The notes: generated from the sequence alone by a model not told the origin. DNA of 64,000 nt from a virus (IMGVR_UViG_3300005805_000070:1-64000), one strand, 5' to 3'; counted from the first letter of the stretch, positions 3,299 to 51,829 are shown. Translations and numbers: made by a program.

Positions 3299-4075
3299 AT
3301 GTCAAGAGGCATCATCTATCTCATTCTCAACAAACAAAATGGGCAGAAATTTGTAGGAAACACCACCTCTGCAATGAATAAAGAATGGGCACATCACATA
3401 GATCGCTCTAAAAGAATGTCATCTGAACCTCTACACAAAGCATTCAGAGACTATGGTGTACACAACTTTATGATGAAAGAACTTGACGAATGTGATTTAT
3501 CAGAAGTTACACAGAAAACAAACTATTGGATAGAGAAATATAAACCTGAATACAATCCTGCTGAAGATATAATCTCAGTTAAAGACATTCCTCAAGTCAA
3601 TGCAGAAAAAACGGAGATTCCAATGCAGGTTTTGCGGAATTCTAAACCAACAAAAAAGAAACCACCATCACCTCACCTTATAAAATGGAATGAGAACAAC
3701 AGAGGTGATGGTAAACACTTTGGTCTTAAGATAAGAGGTAAGAACTTAGAAACTGGTGTATGTACAGACTATGAATCTGCACGTGTTGCAGCAGAACAAG
3801 TCACAGGTAATCCGCGAAACAATTCTAACATTCTACTTGCTGCCAGAACTGGTCGCAAAGCATACGGACACAAGTGGCAGTTGTTAGAAGAGAAAGAAAA
3901 GAAAAAAGCGGTATTTGGTGTGAATAAAAAAACAGAGCAGATTGAAGTTCGTTATGAAAGTATTAACGCTGCCATTCGTGCATTTGAGGGTGCCGATAAG
4001 AACGGAATTCTCAAGAGTCTGAAGAACCCTGGGCGTTATAGTTGGAAGGGTTATTGGTGGTTTTATGTCCGATAA
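3299..4075 (+). CDS. GIY-YIG-fold protein with two C-terminal NUMOD1-like HTH repeats; catalytic residues appear degenerate
   Basis: GIIY...FVG motif, NF and PEYN; repeats YESARVAAEQV and YESINAAIRAF. Confidence 0.8.
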   Translation: MSRGIIYLILNKQNGQKFVGNTTSAMNKEWAHHIDRSKRMSSEPLHKAFRDYGVHNFMMKELDECDLSEVTQKTNYWIEKYKPEYNPAEDIISVKDIPQVNAEKTEIPMQVLRNSKPTKKKPPSPHLIKWNENNRGDGKHFGLKIRGKNLETGVCTDYESARVAAEQVTGNPRNNSNILLAARTGRKAYGHKWQLLEEKEKKKAVFGVNKKTEQIEVRYESINAAIRAFEGADKNGILKSLKNPGRYSWKGYWWFYVR

Positions 4076-8059: not shown

Positions 8060-8117
8060 ATTATAGGGGAAGAACCGCCTCGCTACGGGTTCTCTGTGCC
8101 AGTTTGCCAGCTGGTAC
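8060..8117 (-). promoter_or_regulatory. early promoter embedded in the 3' end of the MTase gene
   Basis: Dyad 8096-8117; TATAAT 8060-8065 contains the MTase stop codon. Confidence 0.75.
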
Positions 8118-8642
8118 ATCCAGTTTCTCCATTATGATTTGTTTTGGTAGAAAATTCCAGCAATAGTAACTGCTGCTGAACGTAATCTTATCATTTGGGC
8201 GTCCATCAGGACTATGAAACTTCATCCGCTTATCAAACATCAACAGTTGCAGATCCTTATCCTTGAACAACTGCTTCGGAGCACTATCATTCAACCAAGT
8301 ATTGGTCATAACCAGAGCAAATGGTTTGTTAAATGAGAGAGCACGTTCAAAGAACTTTCGCTTGTTTGTGAACGGTGGATTTGAAACAATCACATCCCAG
8401 TTATGGTATTCTGGTTCATATGTGAGAAAATCGCACCCATCGTTAATGTGTGAATAGATAACTTCATTCTGTTCACCAATTTGTTTGACAAACTCACTGT
8501 CAGCAGTGTCAAATGGGCACCAAACAACCGCTCCTTTGGGAATGTATTTGAGAATAGGAGTTACCCCGTATGCAGGAGTGTAGCATTCATCATTATTCCC
8601 TTCGGAATACATCAGTTTGCCGCTATCCAGGTCTTTACCCAT
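8061..8642 (-). CDS. orphan phage-type N6-adenine DNA methyltransferase
   Basis: DECYTP, WCPFD and VIVSNPPF (motif IV). Confidence 0.8.
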   Translation of the reverse strand: MGKDLDSGKLMYSEGNNDECYTPAYGVTPILKYIPKGAVVWCPFDTADSEFVKQIGEQNEVIYSHINDGCDFLTYEPEYHNWDVIVSNPPFTNKRKFFERALSFNKPFALVMTNTWLNDSAPKQLFKDKDLQLLMFDKRMKFHSPDGRPNDKITFSSSYYCWNFLPKQIIMEKLDVPAGKLAQRTRSEAVLPL

Positions 8643-24756: not shown

Positions 24757-27451
24757 TTAGTAAGACAGGGATTTAATACCATCTAAAACTTCTTGAAATC
24801 TTTCTGCACGACTTTTGTGATGATTTACATTTTCTTCAAGAATACCCACAATATCATCCAGAATAACGTCTAGAGAAGCATTAGTATCAAAATATTGTTG
24901 GATTGCTTCAGCAAGATACCTCCGCCTACTCCATTCCATACTATAAGGTTTGTAATCCATAATAATGGGTGTATATGGGTGTATTATAGGGTGTTTACTT
25001 CTGATTGTCAAGATCTTGCAAATACTTAATCCACCAATCTGGATCTTTTTGCATCTGCCATCTGGGAACAGGAAGTCCTTTCTCAAAGTAATATTGCCAG
25101 ATAGCCTGTTCAATTATTTCCTTTGTCTCAAGAATCTTCGCCTTCTTCATCAAGGTCTCCATATGGGTCTTCCACATAAGGTCCGTGTGGTCGTTTGGCA
25201 TCCTCTCTGACATAAGTTTGTTCTTCGTTGACGGCAGCAATCCATAAAGATAGTTTCATCACCAACCATATCGTAACCAAAGGTAAAAAGCAAGCGATCA
25301 GGATTAAAGGTTTCATTCATCAACCTCCCAGCACTTTTCGAACTTATCTCTTAACTCATTCAGTTTCACCTGGTGTTGAAACTCCATAATGTGATCTTTT
25401 ATTTCCTTCTCCTCTTCTGTAAAGTCCATACGATATTTGAGTTTAGTATCAACAAGACGCACCATTTCCATATAGAACTGAGTGCCTTTATGAATAAACT
25501 CTTCGTAGGTCAATCTCTCTGCCTCCAGTCATCGGGTTTATCCCTATCTTCCGTCCACCAATCAACCATATCATCAACACTATCAAAACCACGCTTACCA
25601 AAGCGTTCGTGACCCAGACCACCAATATCAAGTTGGTTTAAAAAATCATCCATATCTCCTTCTTGCATATCAGGATTCTCTGCGGTCCTTCTTGCCTGAC
25701 GAAGCATTGTAGCAGCAGAACGATTTGCTTTTGCAAGTTTTTCTGCCCAAATCATATCTTCAAGACTGACCTCTTCGTGCAATGCAATCTTGTTGCAAAT
25801 ACCTTCCAAGCGTAAGCGATATTGTGTAGAGAGCATAAACTCCTCCGAGTATGTGATTATTTATTTTTGTCAAAATATTTTTGTAACTCTTTAGCGAGTT
25901 TCATAGATCGACGCCACATAAAGTATTTTACCACAGGATTTTTGGGATTGTTAAAAATCCACCATTTAATTTTTTCATATTGAAATTTTAGAAATTTAGT
26001 TCCATAATGAACCATCTTGGCAACACTATCATCTGTTATGATAAAATATGCTGCTACAACAAAAAGAAAAAACCAAAAATAATAGATTTCCATTTTAATC
26101 CCACCAGTGTTCTAAACATTTAATGGCATGATATAACTGCTCAGAATAGTATGTATCGGGATTTTCTATTTCTCTGAGTTCTTCTATGTATTGAATTATG
26201 CCTTTTGTAACAGAATTAATCTTGAAATACTCATAAAACTGGAAGCAATCAAACTTTTCAATATACTTAAACATACTATTCCAGTTCTCTTGATAACCAT
26301 TTGTATATACATCTTCTCTTTCTAAATTATTTTCATTCACAAATTTGATTGGAATATATTTTCTCTTATCTAATTCCTTTTCTTCTTCTGTTCTTCTCTC
26401 ACTAAGAATTTCTCTGCCAGTATCGGCATCTAACATTCTTAATCCATCTCTATATTTCTCATAGAGAGAAAGGTCAGTAACGATTTCTGTTTTTTTCCAC
26501 TCATTACATTCATCCAGAAATCTCTGTTTCATATAAGGATAATCTTCAACATCCCAAATACGAAAAATAAGATTCAAGTTATAGCAACCATCTTCATGAT
26601 AAGATTTCCAATGGCGATAGGAAAAATGAGTAATTTCAAAAGACTTATTCATTAGGTTCTCCGTAGTCTTTTTAGATATTCTAACACGTTTTCCCTAACT
26701 GCCATTAATTCATTATAGCACTTTTGATTATGAGCACATTGCCTCAATTCATTATCTGGTTTATGAACACTTTCAATAAAAAGATCCAATCCTCTGTTCC
26801 ATTTTTCATTATCATTCATTTTTTTAAGACCTAATTCAAATACTATTTAAAGCCTTTTTTATCAGTATCTTTTTTCTTACTACTTTTTTTATCCTTAATA
26901 ATCACAACATTAAGATAATTGGGTATTTGATAATGATCTCTCCAATAACCCATCAAATCTTGATAATATTCAAATGTAATGGTCTTACCGTTAAAAAGTT
27001 TTAATTCATAGTAATGATTGTCATATGGTTCTAAAGAAGTGTGAGTAAAACTAGGAACCTCGTTTGACATTTTTCTTTGGATTTTTAGATGTTGATTTTG
27101 AAGATTTTATTTCTTTTTGAATATAAGTTTTAGCAGATGCATAGTTGTTTGCGGTATGAACTTGCTGCCCATTGTGAATGATTACAAATTTTTTTCCCCA
27201 AGGAACTGCTGCCCACATACCATCATTGGTTACATAACCCTGTGGATCTCCTGGTGTGGGATCAAGAATACCAGGTCGATCGATGAAAGGTTTCTGAAAA
27301 CGTTCGCTCATCCGAATACAGCGGTTACGCCAACAACTTTAGCACTGGGATTACGTGCCAGAGCGGTCCTCTTAGCATCTTCATAATCACGTGCCTCAAC
27401 AATTTCGTCAAAAACTTTACCAGCGACGTAGAGTTGAACTTTGCAGCGCAT
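24757..27451 (-). CDS. about 11 small hypothetical ORFs (e.g. 24757-24960, 25510-25836, 26095-26652, 27051-27311, 27308-27451)
   Basis: Track plus hand translation. Confidence 0.65.
24983..25011 (-). promoter_or_regulatory. consensus sigma70 promoter TTGACA-N17-TATAAT (no dyad)
   Basis: -35 at 25006-25011, -10 at 24983-24988. Confidence 0.75.
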
Positions 27452-27492
27452 TGGGGGATTCCTCCTTGTGTGTAAATAGTTTAGCAGAAAAA

Positions 27493-28722
27493 TCAGCGTT
27501 TGACAACGCTGATGGCGGGTTGCCCCTGGTTGAACACGGTATCCACTACCGCTTGCACCTTCTTAGCGGTGCTGATGCCCACAGAAGAGTAGACAGGGAT
27601 GCAGACCAGTCCAAAGGACTTGGTGTAGTCCTGAAGGGCACCAGGGGCGATCCTGCCGCTGCTGAGACCCTCTGCGTCGTCCTTGTGCAGGCGGATCACC
27701 CGACCGATGGTCTGGGAGATGCCAATGTAATCCATAGACCGCATAAACAGCACTGCCTCCAAACCAGAAACGTTGATGCCCTCGCTAAGAATGCTGTGAT
27801 GCAGAACCACAAACTTCTTGTCGTTGTCCTTACCCCAGGCACTCAGAGTGTCAAAGAACACCTCACGGTTGACCTTCTGCCCATCAATCACGGCACCAGT
27901 CTTGGAAGTGATATACATCCAAGAGAACCCACGATCTTCCAGTTGCTGACAGAAATCGGTCTGAGAAACCAGAGAAACGATCTGTTTGGTTGCCTTAGAG
28001 CAGATGAGAACCTTGCCCACTTCCTGAGCATCGATAGTCTGAATCAGATTCTCACAGTCAACATCAGCAACGATCTGACCCTTACCAAGCATCTCAAACT
28101 TCTGCACCACAACCTTAGGAGGAACAATGAAACCACCATCCACCAGTTCGGGAGCGGGCACATTGCAGATCACCTGCCCATAAACTTGGGAATCGTTCAT
28201 CCCAGGTTTGGAAATAGTAGCAGAATGCTTAGGAGTAGCAGTGAAGAAATAGCAGCGGTCAGCAGTAGAAGCGAAATGCTCGGTGGCAGGGAAGAAATGG
28301 CGCTGGACAGAGTTGTGTGCTTCATCAAAGTAAATAGTATCAACGTGAATATCTGCCTGCTGAAGGCGCTGCAGAGAGTTGTAGGTGGTGAAGATAAGTT
28401 GGTGCTTGTAGGCACGACGAGACCAGTTGTAAATCTCAGCAGGTTTCGTGGTGCTTTGGTGATGAGTCTCACCACTATGAACGTGCAGAACAGCAACGTT
28501 AGTGATAAACTCAAGGTACTCAGCAGACAACTGCTCCGCCAGGAGGATTCTTGGACAGCACACCACAATGGTCTTTGGGGCATCGGACTGAAACTCACGG
28601 AGAGCATCACAAATTCCCACAAGGGTTTTACCCCCACCAGTTGGGATGACCACCTGACCTTTCAGGTACTTGGCAAGGGCATCCAGAGCACGTTGTTGGT
28701 GAGGTCGAAGTTGAATCATCAT
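27493..28722 (-). CDS. SF2 DEAH helicase (ResIII/type III restriction subunit-like), no nuclease domain evident
   Basis: PTGGGKT, FDEAH, FFTATP and ILSEGIN...QTIGRVIR; start trimmed to lie downstream of the promoter. Confidence 0.88.
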   Translation of the reverse strand: MMIQLRPHQQRALDALAKYLKGQVVIPTGGGKTLVGICDALREFQSDAPKTIVVCCPRILLAEQLSAEYLEFITNVAVLHVHSGETHHQSTTKPAEIYNWSRRAYKHQLIFTTYNSLQRLQQADIHVDTIYFDEAHNSVQRHFFPATEHFASTADRCYFFTATPKHSATISKPGMNDSQVYGQVICNVPAPELVDGGFIVPPKVVVQKFEMLGKGQIVADVDCENLIQTIDAQEVGKVLICSKATKQIVSLVSQTDFCQQLEDRGFSWMYITSKTGAVIDGQKVNREVFFDTLSAWGKDNDKKFVVLHHSILSEGINVSGLEAVLFMRSMDYIGISQTIGRVIRLHKDDAEGLSSGRIAPGALQDYTKSFGLVCIPVYSSVGISTAKKVQAVVDTVFNQGQPAISVVKR

Positions 28723-28741
28723 CAGGCGTTTCAATACAGAT

Positions 28742-28800
28742 ATTATACAGCAAAAAACAAGGGGACCGAAGCCCCCTTGTGCCACTAGAAGAACTGTTCC
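28742..28800 (-). promoter_or_regulatory. early promoter (dyad 28779-28800, TTCGGT-N17-TATAAT) overlapping a UUCG terminator ACAAGGGG-GCTTCGGT-CCCCTTGT-TTTTT
   Basis: Read directly. Confidence 0.8.
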
Positions 28801-29186
28801 ACTCCCACAGGATTTCCAAAGGAGTAATCATATGTAAGTGCATCATGGCAAACATAATGTGGATGGTCAAGTGGAATACCAATTCTTTGACACATCTCTT
28901 TATGATTATCTTCCATCAACTCAACAGAATAAACCATATTATCAATCACATATTGACGATCATGGTATTCGGAAAGTTTATCAATTAATGCAATAACAAA
29001 ATTTCCAGATCCAGCAGAATTATCAATAAATGTTGAAGATGGATCTCTCAACATATGCTCTGATATTTCAGAAACCATTTTTTCACAAAGTTCTGTTGGG
29101 GTGAATACTTCTTGAGTTTCTGCGATTCTTTCATCAGAACGTTCAATGTTAGATCCAACATCTTGATTATGTTTATTTTTACTCAC
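28785..29186 (-). CDS. half DNA methyltransferase: SAM-binding part only (motifs X, I-III), no NPPY
   Basis: TQEVFTP, FIDNSAGSGNF, VELMEDN and HDAL. Confidence 0.8.
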   Translation of the reverse strand: MSKNKHNQDVGSNIERSDERIAETQEVFTPTELCEKMVSEISEHMLRDPSSTFIDNSAGSGNFVIALIDKLSEYHDRQYVIDNMVYSVELMEDNHKEMCQRIGIPLDHPHYVCHDALTYDYSFGNPVGVEQFF

Positions 29187-29955
29187 CTTTGTCCTCCAAG
29201 CATTTGATGTAAGTTGTAATCAAATCATTTTTGCCAAAATGATAGCGTCCATTGCACTGATTTGCAACTTCCCTAAACCTATCAGCAAATTCTAGAAAAT
29301 TTTGAATTACTTGAGGGTCACGTACTTTAATAAAATGATGTCCCTTTGCATAATGAGTGAAATTTTCGGTTTTTACTCTACCACTCGGTCCACAACCATA
29401 CTCTCCAATAAAAACATCTGCATCAAATCTTTTTTCATAAGCAAGAAATTCAAAATCTGGGTGAGATGTGTGCATATGAATTTTTTCACGTTTCTCATCC
29501 TTCACAACCCAACGTTGTTTTACTGCATTGATTCCACCAGGAAAAGTTTTAGGATCACAGTCTACATCTTCAATGCAATGAAGATTGGGTGAAATTTTAT
29601 TCAAAGAAGATGGTTTACGCACAGAAGTGGGTAAAACAAATCGAATGTCATCAGTAAGTTCTGATGTTTTATTCAGAAATTTGATTGCAAGATTTCCACC
29701 AACACCATATGGAGGATTGCCAATTGCCAATGTAAAACGCATCTTCTGTTGAATTAATAGATCTAGATCTTTTACTATGTTTATTTTAGCATGTTGTTGA
29801 CGAATTGCATAGATGTGCGCTTCGTTATCTTCCCAAACCCAAATATTTTCTGGTTTAAATCCTTTTTTAAGGGATCTAAGAATATGTGAACCTACAGGAT
29901 CACCAACTACAAGAATTTTACTTGTAATAGTTTGGAATGAAATTGTTGATTGCAT
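29179..29955 (-). CDS. Eco57I-like amino-MTase catalytic/TRD subunit 2
   Basis: FTLAIGNPPY; N-terminus paralogous to 29918..30913. Confidence 0.8.
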   Translation of the reverse strand: MQSTISFQTITSKILVVGDPVGSHILRSLKKGFKPENIWVWEDNEAHIYAIRQQHAKINIVKDLDLLIQQKMRFTLAIGNPPYGVGGNLAIKFLNKTSELTDDIRFVLPTSVRKPSSLNKISPNLHCIEDVDCDPKTFPGGINAVKQRWVVKDEKREKIHMHTSHPDFEFLAYEKRFDADVFIGEYGCGPSGRVKTENFTHYAKGHHFIKVRDPQVIQNFLEFADRFREVANQCNGRYHFGKNDLITTYIKCLEDKGE

Positions 29956-30913
29956 CCTTTTGCTGTTGGTTCAAACCATAATACTCCATAATGCTATCAT
30001 CTGTCCATTTCTGATCCAGTGGTGGAAGTGGCACATTCTCAATGTAACGGGAAACATTATTACGATTGGTTGCTTTATTCAAAGCAAGAGCAAATCTTGC
30101 ATACTTTGTCTTCAAATAAGAAACCAAACTATCTCTCTCCTCTTCAGAATTCAATGAATAGAACTTTCCTTCATTATTTTCCGATGTATAAATGTTGCTG
30201 TTGTGATAAAAAAATGTGTAGAAATCGTCAGCAAACAGCTTATTCTCATTGTTAACTACTGGATGCCCACAAATAGTGGGGAGATTGAGAGGTACAGAAT
30301 TTATATTTGATGTTCTAATGGACAGTAAATTTGTTTTGGAAGATTCTGCTCTTATTAAATCTCTCAATTCATAATTTAGTTCTGTTGGTTCCCAATATCC
30401 ACTTGGGAAATCCTCAAGAGAATTAATATAGTATGTATTTCCTGTGGTTTTATAAAAAACCTCAATAGGACCTGTATGATTTTCCTTTGCCTTTGTGATT
30501 ACAAGAGGTGCCTGGAACTGTGCATTAAAGACAGGATTTCCATTAAAAATAGTAAGTTTACAAACCCTATTCTTAAGAGATTTTCTTACATCTTTTTCTA
30601 TCTGTTTTTCAGATCGAGTCAACCATCCAGATGGGTGAATCAGATTAACGTTTTTTGACCTTTCAAGAGCAATTTGAAGGAATTCAAGATGAAGTTGCCC
30701 CTTAAATGGGGGATTTCCTATGGTTAACGTGAAATCCATATCTATATTTTTATAATCCTCCACAATATTAATTCTATCATCAATTTGTTTAATTGAATAC
30801 AGATGAGTTGGATCATTCTCCCAAACGTATATATTCTCTGGATTAAATCCCTTTTGAATCGATCTAAGAGAATGAATCCCATTTGGATCCCCAAAAATGC
30901 AGAGATTAGACAT
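29918..30913 (-). CDS. Eco57I-like amino-MTase catalytic/TRD subunit 1
   Basis: FTLTIGNPPF, IHPSGW and a TRD-like C-terminus (SYLKTKYARFAL...VPLPPLDQKWTD). Confidence 0.8.
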   Translation of the reverse strand: MSNLCIFGDPNGIHSLRSIQKGFNPENIYVWENDPTHLYSIKQIDDRINIVEDYKNIDMDFTLTIGNPPFKGQLHLEFLQIALERSKNVNLIHPSGWLTRSEKQIEKDVRKSLKNRVCKLTIFNGNPVFNAQFQAPLVITKAKENHTGPIEVFYKTTGNTYYINSLEDFPSGYWEPTELNYELRDLIRAESSKTNLLSIRTSNINSVPLNLPTICGHPVVNNENKLFADDFYTFFYHNSNIYTSENNEGKFYSLNSEEERDSLVSYLKTKYARFALALNKATNRNNVSRYIENVPLPPLDQKWTDDSIMEYYGLNQQQKDAINNFIPNYYK

Positions 30914-33039
30914 TAGAAAAAATCGCCCAGAAGATCATCAATCAATTCTACAGGCATCGACTGCTGACTCTGCCGTGAGCAGGACAGTTTCTCAAGTGTC
31001 TTACACTCATCAATGTTCATAGAATGTTGAATGTCTACGACTGCTTGATTGATTCGATAAGAAAAAGATTTTGCATCAATAACTTCATCAAAAACCAATT
31101 CCTCAATGATCTTTTCCGTATCAAGAGTGTTATAAATGTAGTGATCTGTATTAATCAGACTATGAACACTATTAGGAATAACCCCACTCTTAATGCAGTG
31201 GTAAATCGTAAGAGGAACTCTCTCTAGAATTGCACGAATCGTCTCTTTTTTAGTAAGAACAAGTGAATTATCTTGTTTTTCGGAGGATTCACCATCGCGT
31301 TGAATGTTTCCTTTACCATTAGCACCATTGTCGTTCACCACTCTCTTACTACCATTGTTCTTTTCTTTTGAACGAAGGGAGAAATTGAATTGATAATTTG
31401 CAAGTTTTTCCATATCCATGCTGTTCACGATGTTAGAAATCAGGGATATGGTGTTAGTGGCATCAGAAGCAAGAATTGAAGCGATCTGATCTTGAGACAT
31501 AATCTCAAAACCATTTGCCCACTCAACAATCGAAACAAAATCGAGCATAATGTACTCTGAAATCATTGGATTGTTTTCACACGCAGCAATATAAATCTCA
31601 CGGAGAGTTTTAAGACAACGTTGTGGACAAAAATCAATCACATCCCAATCACGATCAGAGGATCCACCACGGAAAGCAAATTGAGTCCAAAAATTAATCG
31701 ACTCACCTTCACTAGCATTGATAACAGTATCAATTTCAGGAATGGTAACGCCAAGAACATTAGCAGAAACAGTCAGAATAATAGTGTATTCATTCTCTGC
31801 AATGTGCTTTTTAATCGTGTCAGCATCTTCTTTTGTGTCTCCAGTTACAACTAAAGGAGCAAACTTAGTCTTCTCCAAATACTTAACAGAAGCATGGCAA
31901 GATGCAACAGAAGGAAGTGTCATAAAGATATGAAACTTACCATTCAAAAGTCGATCTTTTGGTTTTAGGTGCTTTTGATCTCCAAAGGTTTCGGAGTAGA
32001 AGTCCTGCACCAGAGAAGGTTCGACAAAATCAGTCTCATCCTTTCTAATGGAAAAAAGATTCTTCATCGCATCAGGATCATCTCCAAACAACTTCTTGTA
32101 TGCATCCGACTCATACTTTCGAAGAATAACTCTCATCGCAGGGGCATTATTCAAACCCAGTTTCTTATTCAGTTGCTCTTCAAAATAAGAGTAGGTATAA
32201 GAATTAGACTCGGAGAAGTCCCAAACCATAGAAAAAGCAGTACCAGTTACATACAGAACCTGACAATCAAACTTCTTACGGAGTTTCTTAAATTGAGTTG
32301 AATTGTAACCCTGGTGTGCTTCATCATAGACGATCAGATCTACATCACATGGAATCTTGCTCCAGCGATTGTTACCCTGAATCGTGGTCCACAAAACCAG
32401 TTGTTTGTCAGTATTATACCAATATTCAATCTGCTCCAGATAGTCTTTATCTGCGAGATTGATGAATACAATATTGTTGAAATCTGAAAAGTTTTTACTA
32501 TCTGCTCTCCAGGATTGAATTGGAGAAGTGTAACGAGAAACAATCAAACTTACCTTAATACCTTTACGTGCAATTGCTGACAAAACCATGATGGACTTAC
32601 CAGCACGGCACTTAGCAAACAGAAGAAATTCTTTCCACTCTTCCCAAGTAGATAGGACCTTATTAATAAATTCTTGTTGATGCTTTTTGAGAGTCAGATT
32701 CTTTTTCTTCGGAGAATTCTTAGAGAAAAAAGTTTCTTGAATGAATTGAGTGACCTTTTCATGAGTCATCCCAAAACCAGTAATCTCAAAAGATTCTGTA
32801 CCAACCTGCTTGATTCCAGGAAGTTTTGCAACCTCTTTATGAATCTGCTTATCACGACCGTCAAAACCTTCCCAGAAAGCAAACTCCTTATAAATGATGC
32901 CCGCATCACGTGCTTTGTTGTAATCAGCACCACGACGAGGAATACCATACTCCTCAATCATCAAAGGACCATCAGTCTGACCAATACCAAACCAATTAGG
33001 ATTGTTATTATGACCGACGTGATAAATGTTCGTTGCCAT
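30913..33039 (-). CDS. restriction-like nuclease-helicase: putative GIY-YIG/T5orf172-like N-terminus plus SF2 helicase
   Basis: IY...IGQT...R...D..IH...ESF; AKCRAGKS, YDEAH, VTGTA and QFAFRG. Confidence 0.75.
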   Translation of the reverse strand: MATNIYHVGHNNNPNWFGIGQTDGPLMIEEYGIPRRGADYNKARDAGIIYKEFAFWEGFDGRDKQIHKEVAKLPGIKQVGTESFEITGFGMTHEKVTQFIQETFFSKNSPKKKNLTLKKHQQEFINKVLSTWEEWKEFLLFAKCRAGKSIMVLSAIARKGIKVSLIVSRYTSPIQSWRADSKNFSDFNNIVFINLADKDYLEQIEYWYNTDKQLVLWTTIQGNNRWSKIPCDVDLIVYDEAHQGYNSTQFKKLRKKFDCQVLYVTGTAFSMVWDFSESNSYTYSYFEEQLNKKLGLNNAPAMRVILRKYESDAYKKLFGDDPDAMKNLFSIRKDETDFVEPSLVQDFYSETFGDQKHLKPKDRLLNGKFHIFMTLPSVASCHASVKYLEKTKFAPLVVTGDTKEDADTIKKHIAENEYTIILTVSANVLGVTIPEIDTVINASEGESINFWTQFAFRGGSSDRDWDVIDFCPQRCLKTLREIYIAACENNPMISEYIMLDFVSIVEWANGFEIMSQDQIASILASDATNTISLISNIVNSMDMEKLANYQFNFSLRSKEKNNGSKRVVNDNGANGKGNIQRDGESSEKQDNSLVLTKKETIRAILERVPLTIYHCIKSGVIPNSVHSLINTDHYIYNTLDTEKIIEELVFDEVIDAKSFSYRINQAVVDIQHSMNIDECKTLEKLSCSRQSQQSMPVELIDDLLGDFF

Positions 33040-33071
33040 TGGGAGTCTTCTAGGAACTCTGAATAAGGGTT

Positions 33072-33127
33072 ATTATAGCAGAAAAGGAACCCTTGTGAGG
33101 TTCCTTATCCACTTTATAAACTGTCAC
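33072..33127 (-). promoter_or_regulatory. early promoter with dyad (33106-33127) and terminator hairpin, driving the R-M-like cluster
   Basis: TATAAT 33072-33077 and AAGGAACC/GGGTTCCTT; a second TTGACA-N18-TAAAAT at 33156-33185. Confidence 0.7.
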
Positions 33128-33188
33128 AGCCCTTGTTTCCAACGACCACAAAGGTATTTTAGCGATAATTATGGGGTCTTGTCAAGTA

Positions 33189-46396: not shown

Positions 46397-49300
46397 TCAA
46401 TACTGATACCAAATATCACCATTGTTTCCACCACTTGCACCTGCTGTAGAAACCGTTCTTGTTCCGTAAGCATTACTTGTTGATGCAATATTAATGGTTG
46501 TTCCAGAAGAAACAGTAATTGGGTTTGTTCCACCATAACTGGTTTGGTTAACTGTAATCGTAACGTTTGTTGAACCTTGTAGACCCTGGTTTCCAAATGA
46601 TCCCTGAGCACCTTGAGTTCCTTGTCCACCAACTCCACCAAAAGCACCTTGTAAACCTTGAAGACCTTGACGTCCTTGAGTTCCTTGAGCACCTTGAGCA
46701 CCATTTCCACCAAATAAACCTTGAGTACCTTGAGCACCTATTCTTCCTTGAGCACCTTGAGCACCTTGTGCTCCAGTGCCACCAAATTGGCCTTGAATAC
46801 CCTGAGCACCTATTAAACCTTGAGCACCTTGAGTTCCTTGTCCACCAACTCCACCAAAAGCACCTTGAAGTCCTTGAGCACCTATAGAACCTTGAATACC
46901 TTGAGCACCTTGTGCTCCAGTGCCACCAAATTGGCCTTGAATACCTTGTCTTCCTTGAGCACCTTGAGCACCTTGAGCACCTTGAGCACCAGCACCTGGA
47001 GATCCTTGTAAACCTTGTCTACCTTGAGCACCCTGAAGTCCTTGAATTCCTTGAGCACCTTGAGCACCAGAACTACCAAGTATGCCTTGAAGTCCCTGTA
47101 ATCCTTGAGTTCCTTGAGCACCCTGAGCACCAACACCACCAAACGTTCCTTGAACACCTTGAAGACCTTGAGCACCTTGAGCACTTAAACCACCTTGCAG
47201 TCCCTGAGCGCCTTGTCTCCCCTGAGCACCTTGAGCACCTGCACCTTGAAGACCTTGTAATCCTTGACGTCCTTGAAGACCTTGAGCACCTTGGGTTCCT
47301 TGAGCACCAATATTTCCTTGAATACCCTGAGCACCTTGAGTGCCCTGAGCACCTTGGGCACCCACACCACCAAATGTTCCCTGAGCACCTTGTAAACCTT
47401 GAGAACCTTGAGCTCCCTGTGCTCCCTGTGCTCCCTGAACACCCGAACCTTGTACACCTTGAGCACCCTGTCTTCCTTGAAGACCCTGAGCACCTTGAGT
47501 GCCCTGAGCACCTTGAGCACCACCAGATCCAGATAAACCTTGAAGACCTTGTAAACCCTGAGATCCTTGTGCTCCTTGGGCTCCTTGAATGCCTTGAGCA
47601 CCCTGTCTTCCTTGAAGACCTTGAGCACCTTGGGTTCCTTGAGAACCTTGCATTCCTTGAGTTCCTTGAGCACCTTGCCCACCAACACCACCAAATTGCC
47701 CTTGGATACCTTGAGCACCCTGTAGACCTTGGGTTCCCTGCAATCCTTGAATGCCTTGAGCACCCTGTCGTCCTTGAAGACCCTGAGCACCTTGAGTTCC
47801 TTGAGCACCTTGTAGTCCTTGTGTGCCTTGAGCACCCTGGGCACCTACACCACCGAAAGTTCCTTGTAATCCTTGAGCACCCTGTAGACCTTGAGTTCCT
47901 TGAGCGCCTTGTGCTCCTTGAGTTCCTTGTGCTCCTTGAGTTCCTTGGAGTCCCTGGAAACCTTGAGTTCCTTGAAGACCCTGCAATCCTTGGCGACCTT
48001 GAGCACCCTGTAAACCTTGAGATCCCTGAAGACCCTGTAATCCTTGAAGACCTTGAGTTCCCTGAGCACCTTGAGCACCTATAGAACCAAAAGTACCTTG
48101 TGATCCTTGAGCACCTTGAAGTCCTTGATTTCCTTGTAACCCCTGAGTTCCCTGAGCACCTTGGGTTCCCTGCAATCCTTGTAATCCCTGATTTCCTTGT
48201 AAACCTTGAGTACCTTGAGCGCCTTGAGCACCAGTTCCACCAAAAGTGCCTTGAGTTCCCTGTAAACCTTGCAATCCCTGAGTTCCCTGGGCACCCTGCA
48301 ATCCTTGGCGACCTTGAGCACCCTGTAAACCTTGAGTTCCCTGAGCACCTTGTAGTCCTTGCAACCCTTGAGTTCCCTGAGCACCTTGGGCACCAGTAGT
48401 ACCATCTGTTCCTTGTAAACCTTGTCTACCTTGTAAACCTTGTAATCCCTGAGTTCCCTGAGCACCCTGAAGTCCTTGAGTTCCCTGCAATCCCTGGAAT
48501 CCTTGAGTTCCCTGAAGACCCTGCAAACCTTGGCGACCTTGAGAACCCTGAAGACCTTGAGTTCCCTGCAATCCTTGGAAACCTTGGACTCCTTGGAGAC
48601 CTTGGAGACCTTGGAGACCTTGGGTTCCCTGTAATCCTTGTAATCCCTGATTTCCTTGTAAACCTTGAGTTCCTTGAGCACCTTGGGCACCAGTTCCACC
48701 AAAAGTTCCCTGTAAACCTTGAGCACCCTGTAAACCTTGAGAACCCTGAAGTCCCTGTAATCCTTGAAGACCTTGAGTTCCTTGAGTTCCTTGCAATCCT
48801 TGGAAACCTTGAACACCTTGAAGTCCCTGTAATCCCTGAAGACCTTGAGTTCCTTGTAATCCTTGTGCTCCTTGTAAACCTTGAACACCTTGCAATCCTT
48901 GGGCACCTTGAGAACCTTGAAGACCAGTAAATCCGCTAAGACCTTGAGTTCCTTGAGCACCTTGCAATCCTTGAATGCCTTGTAATCCCTGAAGACCCTG
49001 AGTTCCCTGAGCCCCTTGTGTTCCTTGAGCTCCTTGTAGCCCCTGAGAACCTTGAAGTCCTTGTAATCCCTGAAGACCTTGAGTTCCTTGAGTACCCTGT
49101 AATCCTTGGGCGCCTTGAGTTCCCTGAGCACCTTGTGTTCCTGTATCTCCACCTAGACCTTGAGTTCCTTGAAGACCTTGTAAACCTTGGGTTCCTTGTA
49201 AACCTTGAGTTCCTTGTAAACCTTGAGTTCCTTGAGCGCCTTGTGCTCCCTCCATTCCTTGAACACCTTGTGTTCCTTGAGCACCTTGCGCTCCCTCCAT

Positions 49301-51829
49301 TCCTTGAACACCTTGTGTTCCCTGAAGACCTTGTAAACCTTGTAAACCTTGTGCTCCCTGGAGACCTTGACCAGCGAATAATCCATCAAGACCCTGGACA
49401 CCTTGCAATCCCTGGATTCCTTGTAAACCTTGAATTCCCTGCAATCCCTGAACACCTTGGGCACCTTGAAGACCAGTTTCTCCGAGTGCTCCTTGAAGAC
49501 CCTGTAGACCTTGAATTCCCTGCAATCCCTGAACACCCTGGCCACCCTGTAAACCAGTATTTCCAGATTCTCCTTGTACTCCAGTTCTTCCCTGAGTTCC
49601 TTGAAGACCTTGTGTTCCTTGCCCACCAACACCACCAAATAAACCTTGAGAACCTTGGAATCCAGCTAAACCTTGAGATCCCTGAGTTCCTTGTGCTCCT
49701 TGAGCTCCAACAGCACCAAAAGTTCCTTGAGAACCTTGAGCACCTATAGATCCCTGTAAACCTTGAGCACCTACACCACCAAAAGTTCCTTGATTCCCCT
49801 GTAAACCTTGGGTTCCTTGTCTACCTTGAGTTCCTTGAGCACCCTGAGCACCTACACCACCAAATAATCCTTGAATTCCCTGAAGACCTTGAGTTCCTTG
49901 AGTTCCTTGAGCGCCTTGTGCTCCAGTGCCACCAAAAGCACCTTGAAGACCTTGTAAACCTTGAAGACCTTGAGTTCCTTGAGCCCCAACACCACCAAAT
50001 AAACCTTGAGTACCTTGAGCACCCTGTGTTCCTTGTGCTCCTTCTGTTCCTTGAGTTCCTCCAGCACCTTCTGTTCCTTGAATTCCTGTTCTACCCTGAA
50101 CACCTTGAGTTCCTTGGGTTCCTTGTGCGCCTTGAGCTCCACTATCTCCAAAAGTTCCTTGAAGACCTTGGGCACCTTGCATACCTTGTAGACCTTGAGT
50201 TCCCTGTGCTCCAAGAGCACCAGATAAACCCTGAGATCCTTGAGAACCTTGCAATCCTTGAGTTCCTTGTGCTCCTTGAGTGCCTTGTGCCCCAGTTCCA
50301 CCAAAAGTACCTTGTGATCCTTGAGCACCTTGTGATCCTAAAGTTCCTTGGAGACCTTGCGTTCCTTGAGTTCCTTGGAGTCCCTGAAGACCTTGAGCAC
50401 CTTGTAATCCCTGAACACCTTGAGTTCCTTGAGTACCTTGTGCCCCAGTTCCACCAAAAGTACCTTGTGATCCTTGAGCACCTTGTAAACCTTGGCGTCC
50501 TTGTCCTCCCTGAAGACCTTGCAAACCTTGAACACCTTGAGTTCCTTGGGCACCTTGCATTCCTTGAGTGCCTTGAGTTCCCTGAGTTCCTTGTGAACCT
50601 GTTGAACCGCTAGAACCCTGAGTTCCTTGTCTTCCTTGAGTTCCTTGTAAACCTTGGTTTCCTTGAGTTCCTTGAGACCCCTGAGCACCGTCAGCCCCTT
50701 GTGTTCCCTGATTACCTTGTAATCCTTGAGCACCCTGACCACCAACTCCACCAAATAATCCTTGAGATCCTTGAGTTCCTTGGGCACCCTGTAATCCTTG
50801 AGTGCCTTGAGCACCTTGCAAACCTTGCAGACCCTGAGTTCCTTGTCTTCCTTGCAATCCTTGAAGACCTTGAACACCCTGAAGACCTTGAGCTCCCTGA
50901 AGACCTTGTAAACCTTGCAGACCTTGAACGCCCTGAGGACCAGGATCTCCAATATTTCCTTGGACACCTTGAGCACCCTGAATTCCTTGAGCTCCTTGAA
51001 TACCTTGAGCACCCTGAGCACTTTGTGGTCCTTGAAGACCCTGAGTTCCCTGAAAACCTATACCTTGAGAACCCTGTAAACCTTGAGCACCTTGTAAACC
51101 TTGAGTTCCTTGAGCACTTAATCCACCCTGAGTTCCCTGAGCACCCTGAGCACCTTGCAGACCCTGTAATCCTTGGAGGCCAGTCCCGCCAAATTGACCT
51201 TGAGTTCCTTGGGCGCCCTGTAAACCTTGCCCAGCAAAATCACCAGGAATACCTTGAGCACCCTGGGTTCCTTGCCCACCTTGCGCTCCTTGTGCTCCTT
51301 GTGCTCCTTGAGCACCCTGCGCTCCTTGAATACCTTGTGCGCCTATCCTCCCCTGCGCTCCTTGTGCTCCTTGTGCTCCTTGTGTTCCTTGAGTACCCTG
51401 ACCTGCAAATTCACCAGGAATACCTTGAGCACCTTGGGTTCCCTGTGCTCCCTGCGCCCCAGCAGAACCTTGAGTACCCTGAGCACCCTGACGACCTTGA
51501 ATACCTTGTGCGCCTTGAGCACCTTGTGTACCTTGTGCTCCTTGTGTACCTTGAGCACCCTGCGTTCCCTGTAGACCTTGAACCGTTAGTTCTAAACTAG
51601 GAACCCAATATCTTTTTCCAGTATAAAAATTATTATTTGTACCATCATCAACTGCAGTGAGAACATACTGATCTCCTGCAGGATATGGATTTGCTCCAAC
51701 AGAAGATACTCCAACACGAGGATCTCCTAAGTCTGGTTCTGCTTGTTCCAGGCCAAGAAATTCGTATCTATCCGAAGTGATACCTGTTTGTGGTAATCTT
51801 TTTTCTCTTCCAGAAACAAGTCTTCCCAT
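46397..51829 (-). CDS. 1810-aa collagen-like (Gly-X-Gln) fibre protein
   Basis: About 1670 aa of Gly-X-Y triplets (mostly GAQ/GTQ/GLQ) between short globular ends; C-terminal GNNGDIWYQY. Confidence 0.9.
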   Translation of the reverse strand: MGRLVSGREKRLPQTGITSDRYEFLGLEQAEPDLGDPRVGVSSVGANPYPAGDQYVLTAVDDGTNNNFYTGKRYWVPSLELTVQGLQGTQGAQGTQGAQGTQGAQGAQGIQGRQGAQGTQGSAGAQGAQGTQGAQGIPGEFAGQGTQGTQGAQGAQGAQGRIGAQGIQGAQGAQGAQGAQGAQGGQGTQGAQGIPGDFAGQGLQGAQGTQGQFGGTGLQGLQGLQGAQGAQGTQGGLSAQGTQGLQGAQGLQGSQGIGFQGTQGLQGPQSAQGAQGIQGAQGIQGAQGVQGNIGDPGPQGVQGLQGLQGLQGAQGLQGVQGLQGLQGRQGTQGLQGLQGAQGTQGLQGAQGTQGSQGLFGGVGGQGAQGLQGNQGTQGADGAQGSQGTQGNQGLQGTQGRQGTQGSSGSTGSQGTQGTQGTQGMQGAQGTQGVQGLQGLQGGQGRQGLQGAQGSQGTFGGTGAQGTQGTQGVQGLQGAQGLQGLQGTQGTQGLQGTLGSQGAQGSQGTFGGTGAQGTQGAQGTQGLQGSQGSQGLSGALGAQGTQGLQGMQGAQGLQGTFGDSGAQGAQGTQGTQGVQGRTGIQGTEGAGGTQGTEGAQGTQGAQGTQGLFGGVGAQGTQGLQGLQGLQGAFGGTGAQGAQGTQGTQGLQGIQGLFGGVGAQGAQGTQGRQGTQGLQGNQGTFGGVGAQGLQGSIGAQGSQGTFGAVGAQGAQGTQGSQGLAGFQGSQGLFGGVGGQGTQGLQGTQGRTGVQGESGNTGLQGGQGVQGLQGIQGLQGLQGALGETGLQGAQGVQGLQGIQGLQGIQGLQGVQGLDGLFAGQGLQGAQGLQGLQGLQGTQGVQGMEGAQGAQGTQGVQGMEGAQGAQGTQGLQGTQGLQGTQGLQGLQGTQGLGGDTGTQGAQGTQGAQGLQGTQGTQGLQGLQGLQGSQGLQGAQGTQGAQGTQGLQGLQGIQGLQGAQGTQGLSGFTGLQGSQGAQGLQGVQGLQGAQGLQGTQGLQGLQGLQGVQGFQGLQGTQGTQGLQGLQGLQGSQGLQGAQGLQGTFGGTGAQGAQGTQGLQGNQGLQGLQGTQGLQGLQGLQGVQGFQGLQGTQGLQGSQGRQGLQGLQGTQGFQGLQGTQGLQGAQGTQGLQGLQGRQGLQGTDGTTGAQGAQGTQGLQGLQGAQGTQGLQGAQGRQGLQGAQGTQGLQGLQGTQGTFGGTGAQGAQGTQGLQGNQGLQGLQGTQGAQGTQGLQGNQGLQGAQGSQGTFGSIGAQGAQGTQGLQGLQGLQGSQGLQGAQGRQGLQGLQGTQGFQGLQGTQGAQGTQGAQGAQGTQGLQGAQGLQGTFGGVGAQGAQGTQGLQGAQGTQGAQGLQGRQGAQGIQGLQGTQGLQGAQGIQGQFGGVGGQGAQGTQGMQGSQGTQGAQGLQGRQGAQGIQGAQGAQGSQGLQGLQGLSGSGGAQGAQGTQGAQGLQGRQGAQGVQGSGVQGAQGAQGAQGSQGLQGAQGTFGGVGAQGAQGTQGAQGIQGNIGAQGTQGAQGLQGRQGLQGLQGAGAQGAQGRQGAQGLQGGLSAQGAQGLQGVQGTFGGVGAQGAQGTQGLQGLQGILGSSGAQGAQGIQGLQGAQGRQGLQGSPGAGAQGAQGAQGAQGRQGIQGQFGGTGAQGAQGIQGSIGAQGLQGAFGGVGGQGTQGAQGLIGAQGIQGQFGGTGAQGAQGAQGRIGAQGTQGLFGGNGAQGAQGTQGRQGLQGLQGAFGGVGGQGTQGAQGSFGNQGLQGSTNVTITVNQTSYGGTNPITVSSGTTINIASTSNAYGTRTVSTAGASGGNNGDIWYQY

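What the first reader, a model, noticed from the sequence alone, without database searches (positions are those of the whole stretch)
27493..33127. Phage-encoded multi-subunit restriction-modification-like cassette under early-type promoters
Seen: one operon, bounded by dyad promoters, encoding a 708-aa protein (GIY-YIG/T5orf172-like N-terminus plus SF2 helicase), two paralogous NPP(Y/F) MTase-TRD genes and a 133-aa SAM-binding half-MTase. A second ResIII-like helicase follows with its own promoter. Known: nuclease-helicase plus gamma-class MTase plus TRD is the parts list of ATP-dependent R-M (Type ISP/III-like), which is normally a host defence. Inference: a lytic T4-like phage carrying an early-expressed, apparently complete system could use it for inter-phage competition, superinfection exclusion or host DNA degradation, with self-protection by methylation and two specificities.
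Basis: partly seen in the sequence, partly recalled or inferred. Interest (0 to 1): 0.85.

Follow-up and report, generated by a model that had tools for sequence, protein, structure and literature searches.

The report
Phage-borne split Type ISP-like restriction-modification cassette
A marine T4-like cyanophage carries a four-gene cassette that looks like a compact, split ATP-driven restriction-modification enzyme, with an unusual nuclease domain and a puzzling half-methyltransferase partner that turns up wherever this family was examined in phages and bacteria; no activity has been shown.

Summary
Four translationally coupled minus-strand genes (28785-33039) lie between hairpin-plus-TATAAT elements.

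- **p708** is a T5orf172 (GIY-YIG superfamily) domain, an SF2 ATPase and a helical region. It ends in the methyltransferase (MTase) motif X helix.
- **p331 and p258** share a small head carrying motifs I-IV (GDPxGxH, VWE, NPPF/Y). Their C-terminal target-recognition domains (TRDs) are unrelated.
- **p133** is a free-standing X-I-II-III half-MTase.

In 33 related cyanophage cassettes the order p708, MTase-TRD, p133 is conserved, and in 13 of them p708 and the MTase are one ~1050-aa protein. An AlphaFold model of such a fusion finds the Type ISP enzyme LlaBIII as its best PDB match.

Distant relatives are numerous in phage contigs and in bacterial genomes, where they form a three-gene system. 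They match a PADLOC "Type IIG REase-MTase" model. A p133-like gene accompanies them nearly everywhere I looked.

The fifth gene, helicase p430, is a common cyanomyovirus gene and not part of the system.

My reading is a new phage-borne split variant of a catalogued but, as far as I found, uncharacterised ATP-dependent R-M family. Restriction activity, methylation and biological role are inferred. The role of p133 is unexplained.

The scan noted the same system on two other genomes.

The parts
33156..33185 (-). sigma-70-like promoter candidate (TTGACA-N18-TAAAAT) just after the upstream tail gene
   Evidence: 11 of 12 consensus positions; sequence. Function not shown.
33072..33104 (-). hairpin (GGAACC..GGTTCC) + T-run + TATAAT directly upstream of p708
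   Evidence: The same composite element recurs at 28742-28780 and 27476-27513.
32725..33039 (-). p708 residues 1-105: T5orf172 / GIY-YIG-superfamily domain (candidate nuclease)
   Evidence: Homologs hit PF10544 at residues 5-110. hhalign gives 93% probability, E 3.5e-7. ESM features score 0.91 to T5orf172 clusters. Y6, G20/T22, R35-36, D63, H67 and E82 are conserved. The model shows beta-beta-alpha-alpha-beta-alpha topology.
31630..32697 (-). p708 residues ~115-470: SF2 ATPase/translocase core (AKCRAGKS, DEAH, GTA, QFAFRGGS)
   Evidence: ResIII and Helicase_C in Pfam. Motif residues are invariant. VIA-align gives Z 26 to INO80 and Z 25 to DEAD-box cores over model residues 115-510.
30976..31629 (-). 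p708 residues ~471-688: helical linker region with a disordered loop, in the position of the Type ISP coupler
   Evidence: AF2 model of fused homolog. The global Foldseek alignment to LlaBIII spans the whole chain. No family hit of its own.
30916..30975 (-). p708 C-terminal tail (..SMPVELIDDLL..): MTase motif X helix, left on the helicase subunit by the split
   Evidence: Aligns with the helix at 692-700 (pLDDT 91) that precedes beta-1 of the MTase domain in the fused model. The p708 profile ends where N6_Mtase begins in P0051.
29918..30913 (-). p331: gamma-order N6-adenine MTase core (motifs I-VIII, NPPF) + TRD class 2
   Evidence: Start overlaps the p708 stop (TAATG).
29179..29955 (-). p258: paralogous MTase core (NPPY) + TRD class 3
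   Evidence: PADLOC MTase_II E 1.3e-9. This type sits directly after p708 in L008, L018, L026 and ACG-2014f.
28785..29186 (-). p133: free-standing half-MTase (motif X helix, beta1-3 with motifs I-III, disordered pseudo-motif IV tail)
   Evidence: AF2 pLDDT 88. Best folds are the N-terminal halves of CamA, HsdM, BsaXI and LlaBIII. PDB profile hit CamA E 1.4e-3. A p133-like gene is present in 31 of the 33 related cassettes; one of the two without it (L034) is cut off inside the p708 gene. It is also present in distant phage and bacterial versions.
28742..28780 (-). intrinsic terminator hairpin + TGTATAAT between p133 and the next gene: end of the cassette
   Evidence: 10-bp stem with 6 GC pairs and a T-run.
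27493..28722 (-). p430/409-aa SF2 helicase: neighbour, NOT part of the system
   Evidence: Found in 430 phage records, mostly cyanomyoviruses lacking the cassette. It lies elsewhere in L009, L016 and ACG-2014f. It has its own terminator/promoter elements.

Best explanation
The cassette p708-p331-p258-p133 is a phage-borne, split member of a large family of ATP-dependent restriction-modification-like enzymes. These are built like Type ISP enzymes but carry a T5orf172 (GIY-YIG superfamily) domain in place of the Mrr nuclease.

Shown:
- p708 is T5orf172 + SF2 ATPase + a helical linker, and ends with the MTase motif X helix.
- p331 and p258 each supply a compact gamma-order N6-adenine MTase core (motifs I-VIII) and a different TRD.
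- In 13 related cyanophage cassettes p708 and the MTase-TRD are one polypeptide.
- p133 is a separate X-I-II-III SAM-binding half domain. It accompanies the system in nearly all loci examined, in phages and in bacteria.

Inferred:
- The C-terminal motif X helix of p708 docks on the MTase core of p331 or of p258. One nuclease-motor subunit would then serve two alternative specificity subunits.
- The TRD reads an asymmetric site and SAM-dependent methylation marks the phage's own DNA.
- On unmethylated sites the ATPase translocates along DNA and the T5orf172 domain cuts, as in the translocation-collision mechanism of LlaGI/LlaBIII.
- In a lytic cyanophage the likely targets are co-infecting phages and perhaps host DNA.

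p133 is probably an obligate SAM-binding accessory subunit. It may complete headless catalytic-TRD modules in trans, or couple activity to SAM. Which of these applies is open.
For: - **Synteny.** p708, then one or two NPPY genes, then p133, in 30 IMG/VR loci and 3 isolate phages, with overlapping stop/start codons.
- **Fusion.** 13 of 33 cassettes encode a single 1043-1097-aa protein.
- **Fold.** The AF2 model of fused P0002 (pLDDT 79, pTM 0.64) has Type ISP LlaBIII 4xqk as best PDB match (E 2.5e-18, ~1047 columns), with LlaGI 5ffj at rank 4.
- **Nuclease domain.** Transitive Pfam T5orf172 hits, hhalign 93%, conserved Tyr/Arg/Glu positions. A T5orf172 domain is an active nuclease in ICP1 Odn, where mutating the conserved Glu was used as the catalytic knock-out (PMC8263062).
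- **ATPase.** Motif residues are invariant.
- **MTase.** NPP(Y/F), D9, P10, G12 and E32 are invariant in 22 proteins. PDB profile hits run over motifs III-VI to N6A MTases, including TaqI. The heads align with canonical motif I of distant relatives.
- **Modular specificity.** Six TRD classes occur, and they are shuffled within the closest clade.
- **Family breadth.** 827 representatives at E<=0.001. 34 of 40 distant members match PADLOC REase_MTase_IIG PDLC03626. At least 593 bacterial loci match.
- **p133-like partner.** Present after distant phage homologs and in 56 of 80 bacterial loci.
Against: - No activity data exist for any member that I could find.
- The window's own p708 gives no direct Pfam T5orf172 hit and no PADLOC hit. 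The assignment rests on profile and transitive evidence.
- An analogous parts list (DnmA-YeeB-YeeC) shows no restriction in B. subtilis (PMC9973331).
- Motif I of the heads is non-canonical (GDPxGxH), so SAM binding by p331/p258 is not certain.
- Because the MTase looks complete without p133, the model does not explain why p133 is conserved.
- Subunit docking through motif X is inferred from a single-chain model of a fused homolog. It was not predicted for the split proteins.
Confidence: 0.6

Rival explanations
1. Modification-only device. The ATPase moves a methyltransferase along phage DNA so that it is methylated quickly and evades host restriction. The T5orf172 domain binds DNA or is inactive. 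There is no restriction.
For: - Phages commonly carry orphan MTases. This window has another small one at 8061-8642.
- The B. subtilis DnmA cluster behaves as an orphan MTase.
- There is no direct evidence of cleavage.
Against: - The Tyr, Arg and Glu positions of the T5orf172 domain are conserved across phage and bacterial members, which is hard to explain for a dead domain.
- The best structural analog is a restriction enzyme.
- TRD shuffling among close relatives fits conflict better than simple evasion.
Confidence: 0.2
2. Selfish mobile cassette. The T5orf172 nuclease acts mainly as a homing-type endonuclease, or the R-M pair as an addiction module, spreading or stabilising the cassette in cyanophage genomes with little benefit to the phage.
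For: - Distribution is sporadic: 8 of the phage records that carry the neighbouring helicase, and only 2 ACG-2014f isolates.
- The insertion context differs between phages.
- T5orf172 domains occur in putative homing endonucleases of ICP1.
Against: - Homing endonucleases need neither a translocase nor an MTase-TRD.
- The whole multi-domain architecture and p133 are conserved from bacteria to phages.
- This reading does not exclude R-M activity.
Confidence: 0.1
3. Split beta-order methyltransferase. The real MTase is the NPPY-TRD protein completed in trans by p133, as in the headless cassettes. The N-terminal heads of p331/p258 are only adaptors to p708.
For: - Headless NPPY-TRD proteins are followed by, or fused to, a p133-like module in other marine phage contigs (P0001, P0252; 626 relatives).
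- L006 has a headless p258-type gene next to p133.
- The heads have a non-canonical motif I while p133 keeps the canonical one.
Against: - AF2 places the head as beta1-beta3 of a complete Rossmann fold at pLDDT >90.
- The head's acidic and glycine positions are invariant.
- Distant relatives with a fully canonical in-cis motif I still keep a p133-like gene, so p133 is not simply a replacement.
Confidence: 0.25
4. Decaying relic. The cassette is a non-functional remnant.
For: The enzyme is split into pieces and has a minimised motif I.
Against: - All ORFs are intact and translationally coupled in 30+ loci.
- p133 is 55-88% identical across cassettes in which p708 is 39-82% identical.
- Catalytic motifs are invariant.
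Confidence: 0.03

Closest known systems
Type ISP restriction-modification enzymes LlaGI / LlaBIII (PDB 5ffj, 4xqk)
   Same: Same domain order: nuclease, SF2 ATPase, linker, gamma-class N6-adenine MTase, TRD. Best whole-chain structural match of the fused homolog.
   Different: - The nuclease is T5orf172/GIY-YIG-like, not Mrr/PD-(D/E)xK.
- About 1050 aa rather than ~1550 aa.
- Split into two or three polypeptides in the window.
- An extra half-MTase partner.
- Encoded by lytic phages.
- No detectable sequence-level hit to Type ISP chains in the PDB profile search.
PADLOC/REBASE-derived model PDLC03626 'Type IIG REase-MTase' and the bacterial three-gene system [half-MTase][Eco57I-type MTase-TRD][T5orf172-helicase]
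   Same: Homologous family. 34 of 40 distant relatives of p708 match the model. The bacterial loci carry the same three components, including the p133-like gene.
   Different: - The window proteins themselves fall below PADLOC thresholds.
- Gene order differs: phage nuclease-helicase, MTase, half-MTase; bacteria half-MTase, MTase, nuclease-helicase.
- The cyanophage MTase head is minimised.
- I found no experimental characterisation.
DnmA (YeeA)-YeeB-YeeC cluster of Bacillus subtilis and Vibrio crassostreae
   Same: Same parts list: MmeI/Eco57I-like N6A MTase, SF2 helicase, T5orf172 protein (PMC9973331).
   Different: - Three separate proteins, with T5orf172 at the C-terminus of YeeC.
- No half-MTase is reported.
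- No restriction in B. subtilis, but a defence effect is reported in Vibrio.
- Sequence relationship not tested here.
ICP1 Odn (Gp88), a T5orf172 nuclease
   Same: A phage-encoded T5orf172 domain used as an active DNA nuclease in inter-element conflict. The catalytic Arg and Glu are conserved (PMC8263062).
   Different: Targeting is by a RepA-like DNA-binding domain. There is no ATPase and no MTase.
Circularly permuted / split amino-MTases (beta-order IV-VIII, TRD, X, I-III)
   Same: The p133 module is the X-I-III block of such enzymes. Natural fusions (P0001) and splits (P0252 + a 151-aa protein) occur in related phage contigs.
   Different: In the window the MTase already has its own I-III block, so p133 is a second copy. 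The arrangement looks like a duplication intermediate of permutation, yet it is conserved.

Membership tests
Type ISP R-M (LlaGI family) | N-terminal Mrr-type PD-(D/E)xK nuclease | tested here: not met
   The N-terminal domain is T5orf172/GIY-YIG-like.
Type ISP R-M (LlaGI family) | SF2 ATPase followed by gamma-class N6A MTase and C-terminal TRD in one chain | tested here: met
   Met in 13 fused cyanophage homologs and in the model. In the window the chain is split after motif X.
Type ISP R-M (LlaGI family) | ATP-driven translocation and collision-dependent cleavage; one-strand methylation of an asymmetric site | not testable with these tools
   Needs biochemistry.
T5orf172 / GIY-YIG superfamily (PF10544) | Direct match to the Pfam model above its cut-off | tested here: not met
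   No hit for p708 or in the six-frame search of the whole record.
T5orf172 / GIY-YIG superfamily (PF10544) | Homology by profile, and conserved core positions (Tyr in strand 1, G-x-T in strand 2, Arg, D..H helix, Glu-x-Phe) | tested here: met
   hhalign 93%, E 3.5e-7 to Pfam-positive relatives. Alignments. Pfam hits at residues 5-110 of relatives. Topology in the model.
Gamma-class N6-adenine DNA MTase (Eco57I/TaqI-like) | Motif order X, I, II, III, IV (NPPY/F), V-VIII, then TRD | tested here: met
   X sits on the p708 tail and I-VIII + TRD on p331/p258. PDB profile hits to N6A MTases, including TaqI.
Gamma-class N6-adenine DNA MTase (Eco57I/TaqI-like) | Canonical motif I (D/E-P-x-x-G-x-G) for SAM binding | tested here: inconclusive
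   The heads carry GDPxGxH, one residue shorter. p133 carries the canonical DNSAGSGNF.
PADLOC REase_MTase_IIG (PDLC03626) | HMM match | tested here: inconclusive
   No match for the window proteins or the fused L020 protein. 34 of 40 distant homologs and the bacterial subunits match.
Type III R-M | Beta-class Mod plus Res with a C-terminal PD-(D/E)xK nuclease | tested here: not met
   The nuclease-like domain is N-terminal and T5orf172-type. The MTase is in gamma order.
DnmA-YeeB-YeeC cluster | Sequence homology of each component | not tested
   No reference sequences were at hand. Only the parts lists were compared.

The most novel reading that the evidence does not exclude
A widespread, experimentally untouched class of ATP-dependent R-M enzymes uses a GIY-YIG-type (T5orf172) nuclease and needs a free-standing half-methyltransferase as an obligate third, SAM-binding subunit that acts as a switch or sensor. 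Lytic cyanophages carry a miniaturised, split form in which one nuclease-motor subunit is shared by interchangeable MTase-TRD subunits. They use it offensively against co-infecting phages or host DNA.
Probability: 0.3. Interest if true: 0.8.

Novelty: new variant of a known kind. Interest (0 to 1): 0.62.

Why it matters
If the cassette is active, lytic marine cyanophages would carry their own ATP-dependent restriction system with swappable specificity subunits. That bears on phage-phage competition, on host DNA degradation in ocean cyanobacteria, and on reading cyanophage methylomes.

More generally, the family is large: hundreds of bacterial loci, many phage contigs, and structural look-alikes in giant viruses. 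It is catalogued only by homology.

A half-methyltransferase alongside an apparently complete methyltransferase is unexplained. It also looks like a preserved intermediate of the duplication route to circularly permuted methyltransferases.

The compact phage versions (about 1050 + 133 aa) would be convenient for biochemistry and structure work.

Tried and rejected
- **p430 as a fifth subunit: rejected.** It is a common cyanomyovirus helicase (430 records) with its own regulatory elements, and is often located elsewhere.
The T-run is unique to the window.
- **p133 compensating only for the degenerate head: rejected.** Relatives with a canonical in-cis motif I still have a p133-like gene.
- **Natural fusion of the large protein with p133, which would have allowed a single-chain fold of the complex: none found among 150 representatives.** The p133 profile hits only the internal X-I-III region.
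- **Direct sequence searches that gave nothing useful:**
  - The p708 profile against the PDB.
  - p430 against the PDB.
  - PADLOC and NCBIfam on p708 and p331.
  - Pfam on the 373-aa gene of the headless cassette.
- **VIA-align on the 1041-residue model reported only the helicase core.** The N-terminal domain was therefore not tested by structure search on its own.
- **Literature searches found no description of this cassette in cyanophages.**


Full report
**Source and layout**

The window is part of a 78.9-kb IMG/VR virus record, about 35% complete. Its nearest isolates are T4-like cyanomyoviruses of the family Kyanoviridae: S-CAM7, MA01 and its relatives, and ACG-2014f. Baseplate and tail genes in the window agree with this.

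All genes of the finding lie on the minus strand:
- p708: 30913-33039
- p331: 29918-30913
- p258: 29179-29955
- p133: 28785-29186
- p430: 27493-28785

The first four overlap at their stop and start codons. A hairpin followed by a T-run and a TATAAT-like hexamer stands before p708, after p133 and after p430. A near-consensus TTGACA-N18-TAAAAT also stands before p708. The hairpin after p133 lies inside the long reading of p430, so p430 probably starts at 28722. 'Early promoter' is plausible but not demonstrated.

**p708**

Pfam sees only ResIII and Helicase_C. A profile of 22 cyanophage homologs finds 827 representative proteins at E<=0.001. Among 40 distant ones:
- all have ResIII;
- 21 have an Eco57I methylase domain;
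- 14 hit T5orf172 and 9 hit MUG113, at residues 5-110.

Profile-profile comparison of the cyanophage N-terminal domain with Pfam-positive relatives gives 93% probability, E 3.5e-7. It aligns the IY strand, the G-x-T strand, an Arg, the D..H helix and the E-x-F motif. Language-model features point the same way.

The Pfam model itself does not hit the window, so membership rests on profile evidence. A T5orf172 domain is an active nuclease in ICP1 Odn, and the Arg and Glu positions kept here are the ones regarded as catalytic there (PMC8263062). Walker A, DEAH, motif III and motif VI residues are invariant.

**The methyltransferases**

p331 and p258 share a head of about 70 residues with invariant D-P-x-G, an acidic residue after strand 2, and NPP(F/Y). 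After about residue 100 they are unrelated. A family profile matches N6-adenine MTases over motifs III-VI, including TaqI. p258 matches small REBASE-type MTase models.

The C-terminal parts of 37 such proteins from 33 cassettes fall into six classes. The complement differs within the closest clade:
- window and L007: classes 2 and 3
- L005: classes 4 and 3
- L008: class 3 only
- L006: class 2 plus a headless class 3 gene

The p258 type sits directly after p708 in several phages. Either paralog can therefore be the partner of p708.

**Fusion and fold**

In 13 of 33 cassettes p708 and the MTase-TRD are one protein of 1043-1097 aa. AlphaFold2 on one of them (P0002, 39% identical to p708) gave pLDDT 79 and pTM 0.64. 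The model shows, in order:
- a beta-beta-alpha-alpha-beta-alpha N-terminal domain;
- two RecA lobes;
- a helical region with a disordered loop;
- a confident helix at 692-700;
- a complete Rossmann fold (beta1 to beta4 at 708-768, pLDDT above 90);
- a partly uncertain TRD.

Foldseek against the PDB puts the Type ISP enzyme LlaBIII first (E 2.5e-18, alignment across about 1047 columns) and LlaGI at rank 4. VIA-align confirms the SF2 core (Z about 25-26).

In the viral structure library, whole-chain matches include an uncultured phage 'Eco57I methylase' of 1138 aa and a Hokovirus protein of 1324 aa.

The helix at 692-700 corresponds to the last 20 residues of p708. It sits where motif X sits in canonical relatives, and the heads align with their motif I. 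The window's enzyme is thus split between motifs X and I. This suggests how the subunits hold together, but that step is inference.

**p133**

p133 carries motif X (EVFTP), canonical motif I (DNSAGSGNF), and motifs II and III. It ends in a degenerate FGNPVG. Its model (pLDDT 88) is a three-stranded half Rossmann fold with a disordered tail. The best matches are the N-terminal halves of CamA, HsdM, BsaXI, DrdV and LlaBIII.

A p133-like gene follows the MTase gene in all but two of the related cassettes, and one of those two is cut off inside p708. It is better conserved than p708.

It also follows distant relatives whose in-cis motif I is fully canonical (L041, L043, L044). In bacterial genomes the family appears as three genes: half-MTase, Eco57I-type MTase-TRD, T5orf172-helicase. 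I saw a p133-like ORF in 56 of 80 fetched loci, out of at least 593 matching loci across many phyla.

The p133 profile also hits the internal X-I-III block of the large proteins (E down to 3e-18). p133 is therefore a paralog of that block.

**A second context for the p133 module**

Marine phage contigs carry an unknown 373-aa gene, followed by an NPPY-TRD protein with no head, followed by a 151-aa p133-like protein. In some contigs the last two are fused as a 462-aa beta-order MTase (P0001). This group has 626 relatives.

There the module must supply SAM binding. Here the MTase looks complete without it, so its conserved presence is unexplained. I consider a SAM-binding accessory or regulatory subunit most likely.

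The arrangement also resembles the duplication intermediate proposed for circular permutation of MTases. That comparison is from my own knowledge and was not tested.

**p430**

This SF2 helicase occurs in 430 phage records, nearly all cyanophages. p708 occurs in 8. In several relatives it lies kilobases away. It is a neighbour, not a component.

**What it most likely is**

The cassette is a phage-borne, split variant of a Type ISP-like ATP-dependent R-M family with a T5orf172 nuclease. PADLOC, from REBASE, already models the family as 'Type IIG REase-MTase'. I found no experimental work on it.

The nearest studied parts list is DnmA-YeeB-YeeC. It is inactive as R-M in B. subtilis but reported to affect phage sensitivity in Vibrio (PMC9973331).

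Restriction, methylation and the biological role in a lytic phage are all inferred. TRD shuffling and the sporadic distribution fit conflict between phages, or a selfish cassette, better than simple evasion of host restriction.

**Earlier notes**

The scan had noted the same system on two other genomes.

The same note proposed a frameshift at the p708/p331 junction, and I found no conservation to support it.

Noticed in passing
L035:4883-7389; L039:2877-5330: A second, helicase-free cassette in marine phage contigs: an unknown 373-374-aa protein (no Pfam hit), an NPPY-TRD protein that starts right at motif IV, and a p133-like module. The last two are either fused (462 aa, beta-order MTase) or separate (298 + 151 aa). 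This group has 626 relatives.
   Followed up: partly
L006:10133-10702: In a close relative the second (p258-type) MTase gene is intact but lacks the whole motif I-III head. It starts M-R-F-T-L-A-I-G-N-P-P-Y, next to p133. This looks like a natural case of a catalytic-TRD module that would need a trans SAM-binding half.
   Followed up: partly
window 30913-30922: The T-run at the p708/p331 junction (GATTTTTTCTAATG), proposed earlier as a -1 slippery site, is not conserved. Seventeen split junctions in relatives show ATGA or TGATG-type overlaps or short gaps, so plain translational coupling is the simpler reading.
   Followed up: yes
window 8061-8642 (-): A separate small (193 aa) amino-MTase with YTP, SNPPF and phrog_799 'DNA methyltransferase' hits. 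It is an orphan MTase elsewhere in the same phage.
   Followed up: partly
window 27391-28788 (+): A 465-aa open frame antisense to the helicase gene with no family hits. Most likely a shadow ORF.
   Followed up: yes
window 3299-4075 (+): An HNH/GIY-YIG-type homing endonuclease gene on the opposite strand to most of the neighbouring genes listed.
   Followed up: no
window 46397-51829 (-): An 1810-aa ORF in a stretch of raised G+C (0.46-0.49 against about 0.36) with many long overlapping shadow ORFs. It lies among giant tail-fibre-like genes (1847 and 2578 aa).
   Followed up: no
BFVD A0A1V0SG34 (Hokovirus HKV1), A0A6J5KT33: Whole-chain structural look-alikes of the fused enzyme exist in a giant virus (1324 aa, TMq 0.55) and in uncultured tailed phages.
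   Followed up: no
L046-L125: In bacteria the gene order is half-MTase, MTase-TRD, T5orf172-helicase. In phages the nuclease-helicase comes first and the half-MTase last. The half-MTase stays adjacent to the MTase gene in both.
   Followed up: partly
P0143 (1534 aa): One distant relative shows two tandem hits of the p133 (X-I-III) profile inside one chain, at 862-925 and 987-1079.
   Followed up: no
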